Source: Polyangiales bacterium (lineage in GTDB: Bacteria > Myxococcota_A > Polyangia > Polyangiales > Ga0077539). From it: DNA of 64,000 bases. The stretch covers positions 286,525 to 350,524 of the forward strand of contig JBGARZ010000012.1 in the NCBI GenBank assembly GCA_044229975.1. Reading direction: 5' to 3'. This document shows, piece by piece, positions 15,756-25,826 of this stretch. Positions within the stretch are counted from its first letter, which is position 1, and every line of letters begins with the position of its first letter. Below the pieces are notes generated by a model. It ran no database searches, had not been told where the DNA came from, and saw only the letters and a program-made list of their open reading frames with translations. Both the position numbers and the translations under genes were made by a program.

Positions 15756-17876
15756 GTGAACCGAACCATCCCCATCGCCACCCTCCCCTCCACGCTCCGG
15801 GTCGAGGACGCCGTCGAGGCCGCGTGCGCGGCTGATATCGCCTTCATCGAGGAGCGATTGCGTCGCGGCACCTCGGTGCTCGTCGAGTGCGACAAGGAGC
15901 TCTCCCTCTACCTCTACCTCGCCGTCCGCGGACGCCTCCGCCGCACCAAGGACGCGCCCAAGCTCGTGGTGGTCGATGGCCGCCCGGCGCCGGATGTTCC
16001 GTACCGCGGCAACCTCCCGCGCATGTTGGAGCAGCTCACGGAGTCCATCCGCGGCAGCGTCGATCGCACCATCATCGTGCTGCTCCACCTCGACGTGCTG
16101 ACCACCACGCACACGGGGCTCACCCTCGAAGCGCGCGAGTCGATTCCGTTGTTGTATGAAAACCCCGAGGCGGTGCTGCTGGGGTTTCGCGACCCGAGCT
16201 TCGAGGTGCCGAAGGTCATCCGCGAGGTGTTTCCGGCGCGGCGGGAGATCACCGGGATTCCGCGCGAGGCGCTGCCGAAGATCATCACGCAGCGCGAGGC
16301 GAAGTCCCTGCACGCGACGGAGTTCGACCCCTTCGGGATGTACAAGTACGTCTCGGGGTTGAACCCCGTCCGGCTGCGTCGCTTGTTCGGCGAGCTGGAG
16401 CTGCGGCGCGAGGCGGGCGCGGGTCGCTCGCTGGCGCAGGAGGTCTATGCGGACATCCGCAAGCAGACGGTCACCGACGACATCGAGCTCCCCACGGTCG
16501 ACCTCGACGCCGACATCGGCGGCTATGGCGAGGTGAAGACGCGGTTGAAGGAAGAGCTCATCGAGCTCATCCAGCGCAAGGACGCGGTGGGCAGCGAAGG
16601 CGACATCGCGGCGATCGAGTCGCTGCTGCCGCGCGGGGTGATCTTCCATGGGCCACCGGGGACGGGGAAGACGTACTTCGCCAAGGCCATCGCGACGGCG
16701 CTCAACGCGAGCGTGATCATCGTGTCGGGCCCGGAGCTCAAGTCCAAGTGGGTCGGTGAGAGCGAAGAGAATCTTCGCCGGGTCTTCCGACAGGCGAGGC
16801 AGAGCGCGCCCGCGGTGGTGGTGTTCGATGAGATCGACGCCTTCGCGGCGCAGCGCGGGACGTACACCGGGTCGGGCGTGGAGCACTCGATGGTCAACCA
16901 GCTCCTCACGGAGATGGACGGCTTCCGCAAGAACGAGATGGTCTTCGTGGTCGCCACCACGAACTTCCTCACCTCCGTCGACGGCGCGCTGATGCGTCCG
17001 GGGCGCTTCGAGTTTCTCATCGAGATTCCGGCGCCGACGGCGGACGACCGCAAGGCCATCGCGACGATCTACAGCCAGCGCTTCGGGCTCAACCTGTCCG
17101 ACGCGGTGATCTCGCACCTCGTTCGCCGCACCGAGGGCCTCGCCGACCGCGAGAAGAACATCCCCTTCTCGGGCGACCACCTCCAGTCGGTGTGCCGCGC
17201 GCTCAAGCGACAGTCCCTTCGCACGGGGACGACGATGTTTACGACCGAGGACATCGACCGCGCGCTGCAACGGAAGACCCGCCGCGCCATCGTGCTGAGC
17301 AAGGAGGAGGAGCGGGTGATCGGCGTTCACGAGGCGGGGCACGCGCTCATCGCGATGCTGCTGCCGAAGGCGACACCCCCGGAGCGCATCTGCATCGCGC
17401 AGGACCAGGAGGGCGCCCTCGGGTACGTGCTGCGGGCGGCTCGCACGCGGCCGTACGTGACGACGGAGGACGAGATGCGCGCGGACATCTGCGTGGGCCT
17501 CGGGGGCCAGACGGCCGAGCGCATGATGCTGGGCGAGGTGAGCGTCGGGGCCTACGCCGACCTGCAACAGTGCAACCTCATCGCGCGGGCCATGGTCGAG
17601 GAGTACGGCATGAGCGGGACGCTCGGCGCGCGCGTGATGCTGGAGGACGAGTCGGGCCGCAGCGGGATGGGCGCGAGCGAGGCGCGGCGGGTGCGCATCG
17701 ACGCGGCCATCGACGAGATCCTGCGGGCCGAGCAGGCGCGCGCGACGGAGCTGCTGGGCAAGAACCGCGAGCTGCTCAACGCCCTGTGGACGCTGCTGCT
17801 GGAGAAGAAGGTGCTGGAGGGCGAGAGCCTCACGGGCTTCTCCGCGACGGTCACAGGCGCGGCTCCCACTCCGTAG
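15756..17876 (+). CDS. Soluble AAA+ ATPase fused to an M41 (FtsH-type) zinc protease
   Basis: GPPGTGKT, PELKSKWVGESE, VVFDEID, DGALMRPGRFE, then HEAGH and GAYADL. No TM helix; about 240-aa N-terminal region. Confidence 0.9.
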   Translation: MNRTIPIATLPSTLRVEDAVEAACAADIAFIEERLRRGTSVLVECDKELSLYLYLAVRGRLRRTKDAPKLVVVDGRPAPDVPYRGNLPRMLEQLTESIRGSVDRTIIVLLHLDVLTTTHTGLTLEARESIPLLYENPEAVLLGFRDPSFEVPKVIREVFPARREITGIPREALPKIITQREAKSLHATEFDPFGMYKYVSGLNPVRLRRLFGELELRREAGAGRSLAQEVYADIRKQTVTDDIELPTVDLDADIGGYGEVKTRLKEELIELIQRKDAVGSEGDIAAIESLLPRGVIFHGPPGTGKTYFAKAIATALNASVIIVSGPELKSKWVGESEENLRRVFRQARQSAPAVVVFDEIDAFAAQRGTYTGSGVEHSMVNQLLTEMDGFRKNEMVFVVATTNFLTSVDGALMRPGRFEFLIEIPAPTADDRKAIATIYSQRFGLNLSDAVISHLVRRTEGLADREKNIPFSGDHLQSVCRALKRQSLRTGTTMFTTEDIDRALQRKTRRAIVLSKEEERVIGVHEAGHALIAMLLPKATPPERICIAQDQEGALGYVLRAARTRPYVTTEDEMRADICVGLGGQTAERMMLGEVSVGAYADLQQCNLIARAMVEEYGMSGTLGARVMLEDESGRSGMGASEARRVRIDAAIDEILRAEQARATELLGKNRELLNALWTLLLEKKVLEGESLTGFSATVTGAAPTP

Positions 17877-18008: not shown

Positions 18009-20969
18009 ATGCCCAGCGCCCCCACCAGAGAACTGCGCGAGGAGCTCGTCGCCGCCGCAACCGTCGGCGCGGCGTTCTTCGTCGTCACCCTCGGGAGCGT
18101 CGCCCTCACCGCCGGGCAGGAGAACGTCGCGGCCCTCCGCCTCGGCGGCGCCATCCTCCTCGGCGTGCTGCTGCGTCGGCCGCCCGCGCGTCCGTGGCTG
18201 TTCTTCGCGTTCTCCTTCGTCGCGCTCTTCGTCACGGTCACCGTCGCCGGCCGTCCCTGGTGGTCCGCCGCCGTCACCACGACCCTGCGCATCGGCGAGA
18301 TCGCCCTCGCCTACGTCCTCCTGCGCGCGCACGCCCCGGCCGTCGCCGGGCTCCGCAGCCTCACCGCCCTCGCCCGCGTCGGCGCCGTGGCCGTCCTCGC
18401 GACGCCCCTCCTCGGCGGCGTCGCCGGGGCGGGCATCCTGCACCTCGGCCGCGGCACCCCCTTCCGTGTCACGTTCGTCAACTGGTGGATGGGCAACGCC
18501 TTCGGGATGCTCGCCGTCCTCCCGCTGGTGCTCGCGTGGTCGCCCGAGCGCCTGCGCTCCCTGCGCGCCCACGCCGGCCGCGCCCTCGTCGGGCTCGTCA
18601 CGACCCTCGCCACCACCGCCGTCGCGCTGGAGTTCATGGCGCGGCCCTTCGTGGTGCTCACCCTGCCGCTGGTGATCGTCGCGCTCACCCTCGGGCTCTT
18701 CGAGACGACGCTCGTCTGCGCGCTCAACGCCGTGCTCGTGGTGACCCTGCGCTCCCTCGACGGGCTCGGCGTGCTGCACGTCCCCGGGGCCGACCACCTC
18801 GGCGAGCTCACCCACGCGCAGGTGCAGTTCTTCTGCGCCATCGGGCTCGTGGCGCCGCTCACCGCGAGCGTCCTCAACGCCCAGCGCGCGGAGGCGGCGC
18901 GGCTGCTGGCGGAGAGCGAGGCGCGCATCCAGGCGATCACCGACAACATCCCGGCCCTCATCGGCTACCTCGACGCCGACCTGCGCTACCGCTTCAACAA
19001 CCTCGCCTACGAGTCGTGGATGAAGCTCCCGCGGTCGGCCTACGAGGGCCGCACCCCCGCGGAGGTCTACGGCGACGAGGTGGCCGCCCCGATGATGGCG
19101 TTGCTGCGCGAGGTGCTGGGTGGAGGGCGCCAGGAGTTCGAGCGCACGCTCCCCACCGGGCGCGTGGTCTCGACGGTGCTGGTTCCCGATGAGCGCGACG
19201 GCGCGGTGCACGGCGTCTACCTGCTCTCCTTCGACGTGACCGAGCGGCGCGCCGTGGAGGAGGCCCTCTTCCGCGAGAAGGAGCGCGCCGAGGTGACGCT
19301 GCGCTCCATCGGCGACGGGGTGGTGACCGTCGACCTCGCGGGCAACGTCGACTACCTCAACCCGGTCGCCGAGGTGATGACCGGGTGGTCGCTCGACGAG
19401 GCCCGCGGCCGCCCCTCCAGCGAGGTGATGCGCCTCGTCGACGAGAGCGGCGAGGAGACGGGATTGTCCCCGCTCAGGCTCGCCGTGCAGGAAGACCGCA
19501 TCCTCGGCCTCGCCAGCGACGCGCTGCTCGAACGTCGCGACGGGTACCGCTCGCCGGTGGAGGACTCCGCGGCGCCCATCCACGACCGCGACGGCAACGT
19601 CATCGGCGGCGTGATGGTCTTCCACGACGTGAGCGAGGCGCGCGCGATGTCCATCAAGATGTCGCACCTCGCGCAGCACGATCACCTCACGGGCCTGCCC
19701 AACCGCATCCTGCTGCAAGACCGCTTCGCGCAGGCCGTGGCGCGGGGGAAGCGGGAGTCGACGTGCCTGGCGCTGATGTTCCTCGACCTCGACGGCTTCA
19801 AGCACATCAACGACTCGCTCGGTCACGAGGTGGGCGACCTGCTGCTGAAGGAGGTCACCGCGCGGCTCACCCGCGTGGTGCGCGCGTCGGACACGGTGAG
19901 CAGGCAGGGTGGTGATGAGTTCGTGATCCTGCTGCCGCGGGTGCGGGAGGTCGCCGACGCGGCGCTCGTCGCGGAGAAGCTGCTGGAGGCGGTGCGGCGG
20001 CCGGTGGTCATCGAGGGCGCCGAGCTCAACGTGACGTTGAGCATCGGGGTGAGCCTCTACCCCAACGACGGAACCGACCCCGCGGTGTTGATGAAGCACG
20101 CCGACGCGGCGATGTACCAGGCCAAGCAGGGCGGTCGCGACCAGTGCCGCTTCTACACGAAGGAGATCAGCGAGCGCGCCGACCGGCGATTGATGCTGGA
20201 GAGCAGCCTGCACCAGGCGCTGCGCAACCGGGAGTTCGCGGTGCACTACCAGCCCAAGGTGGGCTCGGCCGACGCGGCCATCACGGGCATGGAGGCGCTG
20301 GTGCGCTGGCGGCGCCCGACGGGCGAGGTGGTGCCGCCGGGGGAGTTCATCCACATCGCGGAGGAGAGCGGCCTCATCGGGCGCATCGACCTGTGGGTGC
20401 TCGAAGAGGCGTGCCGGCAGAACCGCGCGTGGCAGGACGCAGGGCTCTTGTCCGTGCCGGTGGCGGTGAACCTCTCGATGGCCTCGTTGGAGGTCGATCG
20501 TTTCCTGGAGCAGCTCGGGTTGATCCTGGAGCGCACCGGCCTCGCGCCCGAGTGGCTGGAGATCGAGTTCACCGAGAGCCAGATGTTGAAGGACACGGCG
20601 CGCTTCGAGCAGCTCATCGCGGGCGTGACGGGCCGCGGGGTGAAGGTCGCCATCGACGACTTCGGCACCGGGTACTCCAGCCTCAGCTACCTGTGCCGCT
20701 ACCCCTTCAACATCCTGAAGATCGATCGTTCGTTCGTGAACGATCTCGGCGGCGGGCACCGGCAGGTGGCGCTGGTCGACGCCATCGTCCGCATGGCCGA
20801 CGCGCTGGGCTACCGCGTCGTCGCCGAAGGGGTCGAGACCCCGGAGCAGGAGACGCTGCTGCGCGGCATGAAGTGCCACGAATTGCAGGGGTATCGGTAC
20901 AGCCGACCCGTGCCACCGGATGAGTTCGTGGGACTGCTGCGGCGGCGGTCGATCATGCCGGCGGCGTAG
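18009..20969 (+). CDS. MASE1-PAS-PAS-GGDEF-EAL diguanylate cyclase/phosphodiesterase
   Basis: Multi-TM N-terminus with WWMGNAFG, two PAS domains, D.LTGLPNR, QGGDEF, EALVRW, DDFGTGYSSL, EGVET. Confidence 0.95.
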   Translation: MPSAPTRELREELVAAATVGAAFFVVTLGSVALTAGQENVAALRLGGAILLGVLLRRPPARPWLFFAFSFVALFVTVTVAGRPWWSAAVTTTLRIGEIALAYVLLRAHAPAVAGLRSLTALARVGAVAVLATPLLGGVAGAGILHLGRGTPFRVTFVNWWMGNAFGMLAVLPLVLAWSPERLRSLRAHAGRALVGLVTTLATTAVALEFMARPFVVLTLPLVIVALTLGLFETTLVCALNAVLVVTLRSLDGLGVLHVPGADHLGELTHAQVQFFCAIGLVAPLTASVLNAQRAEAARLLAESEARIQAITDNIPALIGYLDADLRYRFNNLAYESWMKLPRSAYEGRTPAEVYGDEVAAPMMALLREVLGGGRQEFERTLPTGRVVSTVLVPDERDGAVHGVYLLSFDVTERRAVEEALFREKERAEVTLRSIGDGVVTVDLAGNVDYLNPVAEVMTGWSLDEARGRPSSEVMRLVDESGEETGLSPLRLAVQEDRILGLASDALLERRDGYRSPVEDSAAPIHDRDGNVIGGVMVFHDVSEARAMSIKMSHLAQHDHLTGLPNRILLQDRFAQAVARGKRESTCLALMFLDLDGFKHINDSLGHEVGDLLLKEVTARLTRVVRASDTVSRQGGDEFVILLPRVREVADAALVAEKLLEAVRRPVVIEGAELNVTLSIGVSLYPNDGTDPAVLMKHADAAMYQAKQGGRDQCRFYTKEISERADRRLMLESSLHQALRNREFAVHYQPKVGSADAAITGMEALVRWRRPTGEVVPPGEFIHIAEESGLIGRIDLWVLEEACRQNRAWQDAGLLSVPVAVNLSMASLEVDRFLEQLGLILERTGLAPEWLEIEFTESQMLKDTARFEQLIAGVTGRGVKVAIDDFGTGYSSLSYLCRYPFNILKIDRSFVNDLGGGHRQVALVDAIVRMADALGYRVVAEGVETPEQETLLRGMKCHELQGYRYSRPVPPDEFVGLLRRRSIMPAA

Positions 20970-20982
20970 GCGCCCTCTCATG

Positions 20983-21288
20983 CCGATTCACCCCTTGGAC
21001 GTTCGCAAGGTGGGGCCGGGGTTCACGGTGCAGGCTCCGCGTCCGTCGCGCTCCGTTCACCCCGGGCAATGGTAGGGGGGTCACCCCGCCGCTGCGCGAC
21101 GGGGTTGCAGGCCCGAGATCCATCGCGATCCCGATCAACGAAGCGGGGGCAGTGACTTCCGTTGCAACCCCATCGCAGAGCGATGGGGTGACCCCCTACC
21201 ATTGCCCGGGGTGAACGGAGCGCGACGGACGCAGAGCCTGCACCGTGAACCCCGGCCCCACCTTGCGAACGTCCAAGGGGTGAATCGG
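20983..21288. repeat. Inverted pair of REP-like elements (REPIN/BIME-like) between convergent genes
   Basis: 20983-21109 is the near-perfect reverse complement of 21163-21288. Each arm carries GTAG followed by hairpins. A third copy lies at 63852-63989. Confidence 0.92.
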
Positions 21289-21290
21289 TA

Positions 21291-23345
21291 CTACCGCCGC
21301 ACCAGCGACGACACCGCCGCGAGCAGCGCGCCCAGGTCCACCGGCTTCGAGACGTACCCGTCGAATCCTGCCCGCTGCGCGCTCGCGCGGTCTTCGGCGC
21401 GCGCGTACGCCGTCACCGCGAGCACCCGCGTCGCCCCGCCCCCGTCGGGCGGCAGCGCGCGCACGCGGCGCAGCAGCTCGTACCCGTCGACCGAGGGCAT
21501 CCCGATGTCGGACACCAGCACGTCGGGGCGCGTCCGTACGAGCAGCTCCAGCGCCTCCACCGCCGACCCCACCGTCGTCACGCGGGCGCCCGCCGTCTCC
21601 AGCATGAACGCCACCAGCGCACGCGCGTCGGGCTCGTCGTCGACCACCAGCGCTCGCACCCCCGTGAGCACCGGGCCATCCGGCGCAGACGGCTCGTCCG
21701 CCGACGCTGGGCCCGGGCGGTCGGACGCTGGTCCCTCCTCGTCGTCCCGCAGCGGCAGCCGCACCCGAAACACCGCCCCGCGGCCCAACCCATCGCTCGC
21801 GGCGGACACCGAGCCACCGTGCACGTTCACGAGCTGACGAACGATCGCCAGCCCCAACCCGAGGCCCCCGTGCGCGCGGCTCATGGTGCTGTCCGCCTGC
21901 CGGAAGCGGTCGAACACATGCGGCAGAAACTCCGGCGCGATGCCGCTCCCCGTGTCGCTCACCTCGACCTCCGCGAACCCATCGCGGGCGAAGAGACGCA
22001 GCGCGACCCTGCCGCCCTTCGAGGTGAATTTCAGGGCGTTGGAGAGGAGGTTCCAGGCCACCTGCTGGAGGCGGTCGGGGTCGCCGTGGATGCGCCCGAC
22101 GTCCGCGTCGAGCGCCGCGGTGAGCTCGATGCCCTTGGCCTCCGCCGTCGGCCGCACCGCGTCCATCGCGGCCAGCAACACCTCGCGCATCCCCACCGGG
22201 CGAAACTCCACCCGCAGCTTGCCGGAGATGATCCGCGACACGTCGAGGATGTCCTCGATGATCTGCGCCTGCGCCTTCGCGTTGCGCTCGATGGTCTCGA
22301 TGGCCCGCTGCCGGCGGTCGGGCGAGATCTGCGCGCCGAGCAGCATCCGCGACCACCCGAGAATCGCCGTCAGCGGCGTGCGCAGCTCGTGCGACACCGT
22401 CGCCAGGAACTCGTCCTTCATCCGGTTGGCCGCCTCGGACTCCCGCAGCGCGGCCTGCTCGCGCGCCCGCAGCGACGCCCGCTCGGTGATGTCCGTCAGC
22501 GACACCACGCACCCGAGCGCCTGGCCCTCCGCGCTCACCAGCGGGCCCGCCGACGCCAGCAGGCTCGCGTCGCTCCCGTCCGCGCGGGCCATGGTCACTT
22601 CGACCCCGCTCAGCACCTCGCCCCGCAGCGCGGCGCCCGGGATGCCGCCCTCCCCCAACGCATCGCCGCGCAGTGGAAACGCCATCGCGAAGGGTCGCAG
22701 CAGCGGGTTGTGCGCCGCCAGCCGGTGCGCGCCGCGGCTCGCCCGGATGACCCGCGCGTGGGGGTCGCACACCACGATCGCCTCGGTGCTCTGCTCCAGG
22801 ATGGAGGCCGCGAGGCGCTCGGCCGCCACGATGGCCTGGTTGCGCTTCTGGTCGGTGAGGTCGGTCACCACGAGGCACACGCCCGGGACCTCCCCCTCGC
22901 CGCTCGCCGTCGCCGACAGGTGCACCGGCACGACGGCCCCGACCGCGCTGACCAGCTCGAGCTCGGCGCGCGCCGTCTCTGGCGCGACGAGGCCCAGCAG
23001 CGCGTCGAAGGTGGGCCGCCACGACGTCCGCACGAAGCGGTGCACCTGCGAGCCCGTCACCCGCGCGAGCGGCGTCGCCACCATCGCGGCGAAGCGGCGG
23101 TTGCAGTAGAGCACCGTTCCGTCGAGGCCCACGATGGCCGCGCCCTCGTCCATGGTCTCCACCAGCCGCCGGTACCGATGATCGGCGCCCTGGAGCGTGA
23201 ACACCTTCTCCCCTTCGGGAGAGTGCACCACCAGCGCGTCGACGTGGCCCGAGCGGATGGCGTCGAGCGTCTGCTCGGCCTCCTCCAGGCGCTCGCGCAG
23301 CGCCTCGATTTCGGCCTTCGTGTCGGCGCGCGTCCTTCGCGCCAT
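21291..23345 (-). CDS. PAS-PAS hybrid histidine kinase, last gene of the kai operon
   Basis: FLATVSHELRTPL, NLLSNALKF, DTGSG, FDRFRQ, GGLGLGL; REC VVDDE..VSDIGMP. ATG overlaps the kaiB stop (TGATG). Confidence 0.93.
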   Translation of the reverse strand: MARRTRADTKAEIEALRERLEEAEQTLDAIRSGHVDALVVHSPEGEKVFTLQGADHRYRRLVETMDEGAAIVGLDGTVLYCNRRFAAMVATPLARVTGSQVHRFVRTSWRPTFDALLGLVAPETARAELELVSAVGAVVPVHLSATASGEGEVPGVCLVVTDLTDQKRNQAIVAAERLAASILEQSTEAIVVCDPHARVIRASRGAHRLAAHNPLLRPFAMAFPLRGDALGEGGIPGAALRGEVLSGVEVTMARADGSDASLLASAGPLVSAEGQALGCVVSLTDITERASLRAREQAALRESEAANRMKDEFLATVSHELRTPLTAILGWSRMLLGAQISPDRRQRAIETIERNAKAQAQIIEDILDVSRIISGKLRVEFRPVGMREVLLAAMDAVRPTAEAKGIELTAALDADVGRIHGDPDRLQQVAWNLLSNALKFTSKGGRVALRLFARDGFAEVEVSDTGSGIAPEFLPHVFDRFRQADSTMSRAHGGLGLGLAIVRQLVNVHGGSVSAASDGLGRGAVFRVRLPLRDDEEGPASDRPGPASADEPSAPDGPVLTGVRALVVDDEPDARALVAFMLETAGARVTTVGSAVEALELLVRTRPDVLVSDIGMPSVDGYELLRRVRALPPDGGGATRVLAVTAYARAEDRASAQRAGFDGYVSKPVDLGALLAAVSSLVRR

Positions 23346-23686
23346 CAGCCATCCCCTCGGGGCTGGAGGTTGAGCCCGTGGAGCACGCGGGCCGTGTCGG
23401 AGAGGTCGCCGATGAGCCGCCGCAGCGGCCCCGGGCTCTCCCGGATGAGCGTCGGCACCGCGAGGATCTGCTCCGCCTTGGCGCGCTCGGGCTCTTGATA
23501 GACGTCGATCACTTCGAGCTGGTAGCGGCCCTTCAGGTAGGCCGCGCACACGGCCTTGAGGTTGACGAGCGCGCGCATCGACTGGGGCGTCCCTCCCGCG
23601 ACGTACAGCCGCAGCACGTAGCGCGACGACGCGGTTCCTGCGAGCGCAGCCTCGAAGGCAGTCGACGAGCTCTTCGAGGGCTTCAC
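23345..23686 (-). CDS. kaiB: Circadian clock protein KaiB family (copy 2)
   Basis: [43 protein letters not shown]. Confidence 0.93.
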
Positions 23687-24039
23687 GGCGCGCGCTTGCG
23701 GGTCGAGGGCGGCGGCACCGGGCGGAGGTTCAACCCCACCAGCACGCGCTCGGTGTTGGAGAAGTCCCCGATGATCTTCTTCACCGGCGGCGGGAGCTGC
23801 CGCACCAGCGTGGGAACCGCGAGGATCTGATCACCTCGCGCCAGCGCCGGGTTGATGAGCAGGTCGACGACCTCGATGCGGTAGCGCCCTTTGAGGTGCT
23901 CCTCGCAGATGCGCTTGAGGTTGGCGAAGGCCTCCAGGCTGCGAGGCGTCTGCCCGGCGACGTAGAGCCGCAGCTCCCACTGCTCCGGCTCGGGGGCCTT
24001 CGCCTTCGCCGCGGCGGCCCTCTTGCGCGGGGCGCTCAC
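23683..24039 (-). CDS. kaiB: Circadian clock protein KaiB family (copy 1)
   Basis: [52 protein letters not shown] overlaps the kaiC TGA. Confidence 0.93.
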
Positions 24040-25826
24040 GGCTTCCTCTTCGGCGCCACCAGGGCGGCCGTGTGCTTGCGCGCGCCCGTGCCGCTGGTGC
24101 GCAGCCGACGGATCTCCTCGCGGTCGGAGCCGATGCGGGCCTCGCGCCCGGCGGCCTCGTCGATGGCGCTGGTCATCTCGTCGACCTCCGCGGCGAACTC
24201 GGCTTGCAGCGCCAGGAGCTGCGCCTCGAAGGCCGCGCGCCGGCGGGTGAGGGTGCGCTGTCGACGGTCGGCCTCCTGTCGGCGCGTGAGGGCGGCGGCT
24301 TCGTCGGCCGCCACCTGGGCGACGCGGGCGGTGCCGGTGAGCACCCCGCCGGGGACGGAGTACACCTCGACGAGCTCGACGCCGTGGTCGGAGATCACGA
24401 ACTCCCGCACCTGGTTGGAGTGGGCCATGCCGCGGGACTTCACGACGTAGAGCCCGCGGTTGCGCTCGCCCCCGGCCTCCAGGTCGCGGAGCTGGAACCA
24501 CGTGTCGATGAGGGACGAGATGCCGATGGTGGAGTCCTCGGCGCTGGGGTTGTCGGTGAGCGACGTGAGGAGCGTGGAGATGCCCTTCACCTTCAGGCGG
24601 TCGAAGAGGCGCACCAGCATGGCCTTCACGTCGTGGGCGGTGCCCGCCGTGAGGAGGCTGGAGATGGGGTCGACGACGACGATCTGCGGCGCGATCTCGT
24701 CGACGGTCTGGTGCATGCTGATGAGGTGCATCTCCAGGCCGAAGAGCGTCGGGCGCGCGGCCTGGAAGCGCAGCAGGCCCTTCTTCACCCAGGCGTCGAG
24801 GTCGATGCCGATGGAGCGCATGTTGCGGACGACCTGCGCGGGTGACTCCTCCAGGGCGAAGTACACGCACGACTCTCCCCGCCGACACGCGGCGTCGACG
24901 AAGGACGCGGCGACGCTGGTCTTGCCGGTGCCCGCGGTGCCCGAGATGAGAACGCTCGACCCGCGGTAGTAGCCTTTGCCGCCGAGCATGTCGTCGAGGC
25001 GCGCGATGCCCGTGGAGACGCGGTCGGTGGACACCTCGTAGTCGAGGCCGAGGGCGGTGACGGGCAGCACCGACAAACCCCCGTTGGCGATGAGGAAGGG
25101 GTACTCGTTGGTTCCGTGGGAGGAGCCGCGGTACTTCACGATGCGGAGGCGGCGGGTGGACACCTGCTCGACGACGCGGTGGTCGAGCACGATCACGCAG
25201 TCCGAGACGTACTCTTCCAGGCCGTAGCGGGTGAGCGTTCCTTCGAGGCGCTCGGCGGTGATGACCGCGGTGACGCCGCGCTCCTTCAGCCAACGAAAGA
25301 GCCGACGTATTTCGCCGCGCAGCATGAGGGCGTCGCTGAAGCCGCCGAAGAGAACCTCCAGGGTGTCGAGCACGATGCGCTTCGCGCCGACGGCGTCGAT
25401 GGCCGCCCCGAGGCGCACGAAGAGCCCTTCGAGGCTGTACTCGCCGGTCTCCTCGATCTCGTGCGGGTCGACGTGGATGTAGTCGACGGCCATGAGCTTC
25501 TTGGCGCAGAGGCCGTCGAGGTCGAAGCCCAGCGAGGCGACGTTGGCGGAGAGTTCGTCGGCGGTCTCCTCGAAGGCGACAAAGACGCCGGGCTCGCCGT
25601 AGCGCGTCGCACCGCGGACGAGAAACTCCATGGCGAGGAGGGTCTTGCCGCAGCCCGGACCGCCCGAGACGAGCGTGGGGCGACCGGCGGGGAGTCCGCC
25701 GCCGGTGAGCTGGTCGAGCCCGTCGATGCCCGTCGCCGCCTTGGCGATCATGCGGGGCGACGAAGGAGTGGTTCGGGTGGGGCGAGGAGGACGAGCGGGA
25801 GGGAGTGAGCGTTTCTTTGGCTTCAT
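24036..25826 (-). CDS. kaiC: Circadian clock ATPase/kinase KaiC (double domain)
   Basis: [53 protein letters not shown]. Start is 25826 or alternatively 25751. Confidence 0.96.

What the first reader, a model, noticed from the sequence alone, without database searches (positions are those of the whole stretch)
21291..25826. KaiA-less kaiC-kaiB-kaiB-hybrid kinase operon in an apparently non-cyanobacterial genome: candidate hourglass timer with its own output kinase
Seen: four translationally coupled genes (overlapping start/stop codons). KaiC has two intact ATPase domains, ISSLIDTW at the phosphosite position, and a long charged C-terminal extension ([30 protein letters not shown]). The two KaiB copies are clearly diverged. 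The PAS-PAS-HK-REC begins with a distinctive helical segment (LEEAEQTLDAIRSGHVDALVV). Established: S. elongatus KaiC has S431/T432, whereas Rhodobacter sphaeroides KaiC has an SS pair plus a coiled-coil tail and works without KaiA. Inference: one KaiB may act as timer partner and the other as an adaptor to the kinase, standing in for the KaiB-like domain of SasA. Similar operons occur elsewhere, but their physiology is largely uncharacterised.
Basis: partly seen in the sequence, partly recalled or inferred. Interest (0 to 1): 0.75.

Follow-up and report, generated by a model that had tools for sequence, protein, structure and literature searches.

The report
Kai hourglass operon with dedicated kinase
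This non-photosynthetic bacterium carries an intact four-gene copy of the KaiA-free clock module known from Rhodobacter, and its kinase begins with a short domain absent from Pfam that travels almost only with these Kai genes and likely links them to the cell's response.

Summary
In detail: kaiC-kaiB-kaiB-PAS-PAS-HK-REC with overlapping stop/start codons. KaiC is 53% identical to R. sphaeroides KaiC, with the SS sites and tail. No kaiA, SasA-like domain or reaction-centre gene was found (genome 93% complete). The operon type is known (kaiC-B-PAS/HK, Ma 2016; kaiCBB, PMC5944118), and this scan found it before on other DNA (54 findings, at least 52 genomes). What I tested: the kinase's ~55-residue N-terminal 'cap' has no Pfam or PDB match and about 4,600 sequence clusters. 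It sits directly behind kaiB in 162 of 168 copies. All 38 genomes with a full-length cap match in three class samples carry kaiB. It fronts varied outputs and also heads the R. sphaeroides KD131 kinase. The two KaiBs belong to two conserved paralogue groups. Either can stand alone with the cap (28 and 10 of 139 complete operons), so the second KaiB is not an obligate SasA-like adaptor. Best reading: an ATP/ADP-driven KaiBC switch with hourglass kinetics, probably read by the kinase through the cap. Binding and timing are inferred, not shown.

The parts
24036..25826 (-). kaiC, KaiC2/R. sphaeroides type: double ATPase, SS phosphosites S437/S438, C-terminal coiled-coil extension (about residues 500-580); alternative start at M26
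23683..24039 (-). kaiB1, first-position paralogue group, which includes KaiB_RS; keeps Val at the position of KaiB_RS V83 and the three fold-switch prolines
23345..23686 (-). kaiB2, second-position paralogue group (faster evolving, DxYQ signature, His at the V83 position, three prolines kept)
23166..23345 (-). Kai-linked N-terminal 'cap' of the kinase (about residues 6-60): predicted long helix plus beta-hairpin; no Pfam or PDB family
21291..23345 (-). soluble hybrid histidine kinase: cap-PAS-PAS-HisKA(H319)-HATPase-REC(D613)

Best explanation
The operon encodes a Rhodobacter-type KaiC with two KaiB paralogues and a hybrid kinase, and likely works as a slow energy-charge switch (an hourglass reset by ATP/ADP) whose state is likely read by the kinase through its conserved N-terminal cap. 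Steps: (1) KaiC would form a tail-joined dodecamer and autophosphorylate S437/S438 without KaiA at high ATP. This was shown for KaiC_RS and is inferred here from 53% identity and intact motifs. (2) At low ATP/ADP, fold-switched KaiB would bind the CI ring and favour dephosphorylation (shown for KaiB_RS, inferred here). Both KaiBs probably bind KaiC; KaiB1 is likely the slow fold-switcher and KaiB2 likely more readily fold-switched. (3) The cap would dock on the KaiB-KaiC assembly, most likely on KaiC-bound KaiB in the way CikA does, and change H319 autophosphorylation and transfer to D613 (inferred from gene linkage and domain shuffling only). With no reaction-centre genes, the driver is more likely feast-famine or oxygen swings than light.
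For: KaiC matches 8DBA at E 4e-185 with SS, EE and P-loop residues aligned; SS is invariant in 77 aligned relatives. KaiC_RS biochemistry is from Pitsawong et al.. The cap follows kaiB directly in 72 of 80 KaiC-selected GTDB loci; 7 are cut by contig ends and 1 (L041) truly lacks it. Reverse test: 44 of 46 strong cap-selected metagenome loci have kaiB directly upstream, and the other 2 start at the contig edge. Overall 162 of 168 distinct caps. Genome samples: 13 of 13 kaiB-positive genomes of 151 have the cap; 10 of 11 of 201; 15 of 15 cap-positive archaeal genomes of 121 have kaiB. The cap is absent from two genus relatives whose kai cassette is of another type. The cap stays while the rest of the protein changes: HisKA, HisKA_2, HisKA_3, HWE, GGDEF-EAL, HD, LuxR and STAS outputs, and a GAF in place of PAS. 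It is also repeated in tandem in some proteins. It is not a KaiB-like fold, which argues against SasA-style mimicry. It is kept with tail-less KaiC (4 loci), so the tail is not its required partner. One cap-PAS-KaiB fusion exists (P0016, a single contig).
Against: All evidence for contact is genomic linkage; kin and transferred cassettes are not independent events. No cap column tracked the KaiB type once lineage was considered. L041 has kaiC-B-B without a cap gene, and one methanogen cap gene lies away from its kai operon (L204). Synechocystis kaiC2B2 knockouts changed neither rhythm nor fitness (PMC9846126, passages). No response regulator or HPt gene lies in the operon, so the target is unknown. 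The fold-state asymmetry of the KaiBs rests on one position (V in 93% of first-type, 25% of second-type) and on an AF2 model without a matched control.
Confidence: 0.55

Rival explanations
1. KaiB2 is a specialised adaptor that recruits the kinase, while KaiB1 is the timer partner.
For: Two conserved paralogue groups: 87 of 87 first-position KaiBs form one 98%-supported group and 87 of 87 second-position copies lie outside it. When a second-type KaiB is present it is always next to the kinase (111 of 111 complete operons). It has its own signature and evolves faster (52% versus 67% mean identity).
Against: 28 complete operons, including R. sphaeroides KD131, pair the same cap with a first-type KaiB alone, and 10 with a second-type alone. 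KaiB2 keeps the residues shared with KaiB_RS that I recall forming the KaiC interface. No cap change tracks loss of KaiB2.
Confidence: 0.15
2. The cap binds KaiC directly, for example at the CI ring in competition with KaiB as SasA does, and the KaiBs only reset KaiC.
For: KaiC2 is the constant member of all 139 complete operons, while either KaiB can be lost. Tandem caps would suit a multivalent ring. This is a variant of the best explanation and shares its linkage evidence.
Against: The cap is not a KaiB-like domain. None of the 139 complete cap operons has lost both KaiBs.
Confidence: 0.15
3. The kinase is the input: its PAS domains sense redox or oxygen and set the KaiBC state, as proposed for R. 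sphaeroides.
For: Two PAS domains. The proposal is cited in PMC5520375 and PMC10931921 (passages).
Against: The cap is fused to many effector types, such as cyclases, HD domains and LuxR, which suits an output better than an input. PAS can be replaced by GAF (L027). No LOV-type motif is visible in the sequence.
Confidence: 0.08
4. The cap is only a dimerisation or assembly element, and the genes are co-inherited as a cassette without direct Kai-kinase contact.
For: The N-terminal helix looks like a coiled coil (only weak coiled-coil matches). The cassette is patchy (4 of 251 genomes in the host phylum) and occurs on plasmids.
Against: A generic dimerisation element should occur on non-kai kinases, yet full-length caps were found only in kaiB-positive genomes in three class samples. 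The helix is shortened in Acidobacteriota while the AIxxGxVDA-hairpin core is kept.
Confidence: 0.07

Closest known systems
R. (Cereibacter) sphaeroides KD131 KaiBC hourglass (PDB 8DBA, 8FWI, 8FWJ; Pitsawong et al., 10.1101/2022.11.28.518275) and its kaiC-kaiB-HWE kinase operon on pRSKD131A
   Same: KaiC 53% identical with SS sites and tail; KaiB1 56% identical and in the same group; no kaiA; the downstream kinase carries the same cap (52 bits; cap plus PAS 37.5% identical).
   Different: A second KaiB paralogue; a HisKA-REC hybrid kinase instead of an HWE kinase; a host with no reaction-centre gene, so no photosynthetic day-night ATP/ADP swing.
R. palustris kaiC-B-PAS/HK operon (Ma et al. 2016, PMC4794148); kaiC-kaiB-HK/GGDEF context group (De Luca et al. 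2011, PMC3164672); kaiCBB of Thiodictyon (PMC5944118)
   Same: The same gene order and a signalling gene next to kaiB; the two-kaiB arrangement is already named in passing.
   Different: In the passages read, none describes the conserved cap or treats the two KaiBs as distinct paralogue groups.
S. elongatus KaiABC with SasA and CikA outputs
   Same: KaiC/KaiB core and a histidine-kinase output.
   Different: No KaiA, SS instead of ST, a long tail, and a kinase N-terminus that is not KaiB-like.
Ramlibacter KaiC-HK pair with the RtaNt N-terminal domain (PMC3164672)
   Same: The idea of a dedicated KaiC-interacting N-terminal module on a co-transcribed kinase.
   Different: That group lacks kaiB and its module is described as receiver-like; the cap occurs with kaiB and has no receiver match. 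The sequences were not compared directly.

Membership tests
KaiC2-KaiB2 (R. sphaeroides-type) system | Double ATPase KaiC with intact P-loops and EE pairs | tested here: met
KaiC2-KaiB2 (R. sphaeroides-type) system | SS phosphosites | tested here: met
   S437/S438 align to S413/S414
KaiC2-KaiB2 (R. sphaeroides-type) system | About 50-residue C-terminal coiled-coil extension | tested here: met
   aligned to 8DBA through residue 576
KaiC2-KaiB2 (R. sphaeroides-type) system | Adjacent kaiB with the three fold-switch prolines; no kaiA | tested here: met
   genome 93% complete; a divergent KaiA3 was not searched with its own model
KaiC2-KaiB2 (R. sphaeroides-type) system | Downstream PAS kinase gene | tested here: met
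KaiC2-KaiB2 (R. sphaeroides-type) system | Dodecamer; ATP/ADP- and KaiB-dependent phosphorylation cycle | not testable with these tools
   needs biochemistry
Light-reset daily hourglass of purple bacteria | Photosynthetic day-night ATP/ADP swing | tested here: not met
   no type II reaction centre, control rang; type I centres not searched; rhodopsin search had no working control
Cyanobacterial KaiABC oscillator | kaiA and ST phosphosites | tested here: not met
SasA-type kinase | N-terminal KaiB-like domain | tested here: not met
   A KaiB profile finds only the two kaiB genes in the genome yet detects distant KaiB-like domains in relatives; the model shows helix, hairpin, PAS
Tail-less KaiC cassettes (KaiC3-like) | Tail-less KaiC outside the KaiC2 group | tested here: not met
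   window KaiC lies in the 98%-supported group with KaiC_RS, apart from six other-type KaiCs
Fold-locked KaiB (Legionella or KaiB-TV-4 type), for KaiB2 | Fold-switched state favoured when free | tested here: inconclusive
   AF2 gives the fold-switched topology but KaiB1 was not folded alone as a control; V83 position relaxed

The most novel reading that the evidence does not exclude
The cap is the missing, universal reader of KaiA-less KaiBC systems: a plug-in domain of thousands of sequence clusters that docks on the KaiB-KaiC complex and wires it to kinases, cyclases, phosphodiesterases or transcription factors across bacteria and methanogens. The two-KaiB form, with a slow and a fast KaiB, is ancestral, and the 'primordial' R. 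sphaeroides KaiBC is a reduced version of it.
Probability: 0.35. Interest if true: 0.8.

Novelty: new variant of a known kind. Interest (0 to 1): 0.45.

Why it matters
What KaiA-less KaiBC systems control, and how, is open: the reconstituted R. sphaeroides hourglass has no characterised output in the papers I read. The kinase next to kaiB in that same strain carries the cap, so the output question can be tested at once with already purified KaiC_RS and KaiB_RS plus one 55-residue domain. The split into two conserved KaiB groups, with single-KaiB operons scattered among two-KaiB ones, also bears on whether Rhodobacter KaiBC is primitive or reduced. This locus itself is one ordinary copy of a widespread cassette.

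Tried and rejected
Complex prediction of KaiC (without tail), KaiB1 and cap-PAS with alignments: verdict 'no answer', score 0.00 against a mark of 0.32, controls not folded; not evidence either way. Mean-field coevolution on 105 paired KaiB1/KaiB2/cap rows (effective 66 for 247 columns): too shallow, no usable inter-protein signal. Idea that the cap is a duplicated PAS N-terminal half: hhalign probability 0.2, rejected. Idea that cap hairpin residues track the adjacent KaiB type: the differences follow lineage, since two-KaiB members of the same KaiC clade share them. Pfam, PDB sequence and Atlas searches of the cap gave only weak coiled-coil or unnamed hits; Foldseek listed only PAS-containing proteins. 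Promoter scan found nothing above chance. Rhodopsin search had no ringing control. Neighbour clustering found no conserved fifth gene; the largest real cluster was a response regulator in 15 of the 128 loci L016-L143. The scan look-up by sequence returned nothing. Rows dropped before the 168 count: caps under 45 bits (L142 and L143, truncated, no kaiB upstream; L182; L169), duplicates, the window's own copies, and L180/L183 from unpublished G533. In one search one weak partial hit (G382, E 5e-6) had no kaiB. In one search, 9 of 24 KaiB-positive genomes had no cap, all with weaker KaiB matches (E 1e-20 or worse).
Full report
Observation. The four reading frames are as described: kaiC 25826-24036, kaiB1 24039-23683, kaiB2 23686-23345 and a kinase 23345-21291, all on the minus strand with GTGA, GTGA and TGATG junctions. 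KaiC passes the NCBIfam KaiC cut-off but not the cyanobacterial TIGR02655 cut-off. Its best solved relative is R. sphaeroides KaiC (8DBA, E 4e-185), far ahead of cyanobacterial KaiC (E 5e-93). Against the KD131 protein it is 53% identical over 550 residues, with both Walker lysines, both EE pairs and the SS pair aligned. The kinase is PAS-PAS-HisKA-HATPase-REC with its catalytic motifs present.

Host. The genome is 10.0 Mb and 93% complete. It has no KaiA (control rang), no type II reaction centre (control rang), and no other KaiB, KaiB-like domain, cap or close KaiC. Neighbouring MXAN_6577-like genes point to a Myxococcota-type host. The cassette is patchy. One of 8 genus relatives has a close KaiC (82%, at a contig end), 4 of 251 sampled phylum genomes have the cap, and 13 plasmid records carry a KaiC above 50% identity.

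The cassette. In the 80 best GTDB loci, from many bacterial phyla and Methanosarcinaceae (more existed), a gene with the same N-terminus follows kaiB in 72. Of these, 41 have two kaiB, 29 one and 2 three; 7 loci end too early and L041 lacks the gene. I call the conserved segment (about residues 6-60) the cap. AF2 models it as a long helix and a beta-hairpin ahead of PAS (mean pLDDT 92). It has no consistent Pfam family and no significant PDB match, yet 4,574 clusters at 50% identity match at E 1e-10 or better, nearly always at the N-terminus among the 150 listed. Among 94 of those 150 proteins, outputs were HisKA 39, HisKA_3 11, HisKA_2 5, HWE 3, and single GGDEF, HD, LuxR and STAS proteins. 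L047 has GGDEF-EAL, L027 has GAF straight after the cap, and some proteins repeat the cap.

Linkage tested in reverse. Searching metagenomes with the cap alone gave 48 loci: 44 have kaiB directly upstream, 2 start at the contig edge and 2 are weak truncated matches without kaiB. Over all loci, 162 of 168 distinct caps have kaiB directly upstream; 3 lie at contig edges, 2 are second copies within kai loci and 1 is remote in a kai-bearing genome. Whole-genome samples, drawn without regard to kai apart from the centre genome of each, agree. In the class of G287, 13 of 151 genomes have KaiB and all 13 have the cap, plus one weak partial cap hit. In the class of G285, 10 of 201 have the cap and all have KaiB, while 1 distant KaiB has no cap; one of the 10 (G533) is unpublished. 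In the archaeal class of G288, 15 of 121 have the cap and all have KaiB, while 9 genomes with weaker KaiB matches have none. Two genus relatives with a different kai cassette have no cap. Kin are not independent, so I give no test statistic.

The textbook system has it too. On plasmid pRSKD131A, kaiC and the single kaiB (WP_002725098.1, the KaiB_RS of the NMR work) are followed by an HWE kinase. Its first 50 residues score 52 bits on the cap profile, and cap plus PAS is 37.5% identical to the window kinase.

The two KaiBs. In a 221-row tree (few columns, quick method), all 87 first-position KaiBs, 28 of 38 single KaiBs and KaiB_RS form a 98%-supported group; all 87 second-position copies and 10 singles lie outside. 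A profile-based recount gave 99 B1-B2, 28 B1-only, 10 B2-only and 2 three-KaiB complete operons. On the KaiC tree, single-KaiB operons are scattered among two-KaiB ones, and starred branches force at least 5 changes for B1-only. This fits an old duplication with repeated losses, but the sample is centred on my query and the root was not tested. Both groups keep the three prolines that gate fold switching in KaiB_RS and the motifs I recall forming the KaiC interface (recalled, from no call). The Val whose change to Asp drives the predicted switch to the fold-switched state in KaiB_RS (V83) is Val in 93% of B1 and 25% of B2, and His in the window's KaiB2. AF2 gave KaiB2 the fold-switched topology, without a KaiB1 control, so this is a lead only.

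Mechanism. For KaiC_RS it is shown that KaiC phosphorylates itself without KaiA, forms a tail-joined dodecamer, and is dephosphorylated at low ATP/ADP when fold-switched KaiB binds CI. I infer the same here. The kinase is most simply the output, because the cap is constant while effectors are swapped. The cap needs neither the KaiC tail (four tail-less loci) nor a particular KaiB. It is not KaiB-like, and none of the 139 complete operons has lost both KaiBs. I therefore favour docking on KaiC-bound KaiB, by analogy with CikA and KaiA binding KaiB's edge strand (recalled), over direct KaiC binding. With no reaction centre, and with many carriers being anaerobes or methanogens by their record titles, an energy-state switch with a delay of hours is more likely than a light-reset daily timer. 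Synechocystis kaiC2B2 knockouts had no rhythm or fitness effect, whereas R. palustris growth depended on kaiC in 24-h cycles, so the physiology is unsettled.

Literature seen. Pitsawong et al. 10.1101/2022.11.28.518275: parts 1-3 of 6. De Luca et al. PMC3164672: section 17 and passages. Passages only: PMC4794148, PMC5520375, PMC10931921, PMC10808063, PMC11372060, PMC5944118, PMC9846126, 10.1101/2024.06.03.597139, 10.64898/2026.04.01.715469. No supplements were read; Fig. S6 of PMC3164672 and S1 of PMC4794148 may show more of the gene contexts. Min et al. 2005 was seen only as cited. The kaiC-B-PAS/HK operon and the name kaiCBB are in print. Eight searches of an open-access library found no description of the cap or of two KaiB paralogue groups; subscription papers and book chapters were not searchable. 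Earlier notes of this scan had already remarked on the cassette and the conserved kinase N-terminus on other genomes.

Verdict. A real, intact member of the KaiC2-type system; the two-KaiB, cap-kinase form is a variant of a known kind. The value lies in the cap as a concrete, testable candidate for the unknown output link, including in the already reconstituted Rhodobacter system. Interest 0.45.

Noticed in passing
window 20982-21289: A roughly 310-bp near-perfect palindrome (arms of about 120 bp) between the converging GGDEF-EAL and kinase genes, with 25 matching places in this genome. No matches to it were listed for genus relatives among the rows shown. It looks like a recent MITE- or REP-like element.
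   Followed up: partly
L207 and L208 (G001:C224, G003:C88): Genus relatives carry a different kai cassette: kinase, kaiB, tail-less kaiC, a REC-KaiB fusion, and in L208 a further REC and KaiC-like gene. It has no cap, and this genome lacks it.
   Followed up: partly
P0005-P0019: KaiB-KaiB, KaiC-KaiB and cap-PAS-KaiB (P0016) fusion proteins, each on a single contig; some may be frameshift or assembly artefacts.
   Followed up: partly
L054, L087, L152-L156 (G288): Methanosarcinaceae with three kaiB genes per operon and up to four cap-bearing operons in one genome.
   Followed up: partly
L038, L049, L060, L063, L090, L092, L094: Bacteroidales-type operons end in a short 235-250 aa cap-PAS protein with no kinase domain; its C-terminal part was not identified.
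   Followed up: partly
L065 and L066: Near-identical kai cassettes in records titled Kuenenia and Chitinophaga (KaiC branch lengths about 0.002): recent transfer or a binning error.
   Followed up: no
window 18009-20969 (+): A MASE1-PAS-PAS-GGDEF-EAL gene converges on the operon; not seen as a conserved neighbour elsewhere.
   Followed up: partly
window 15756-17876 (+): A soluble-looking AAA plus peptidase M41 (FtsH-like) protein with an unusual N-terminal region.
   Followed up: no
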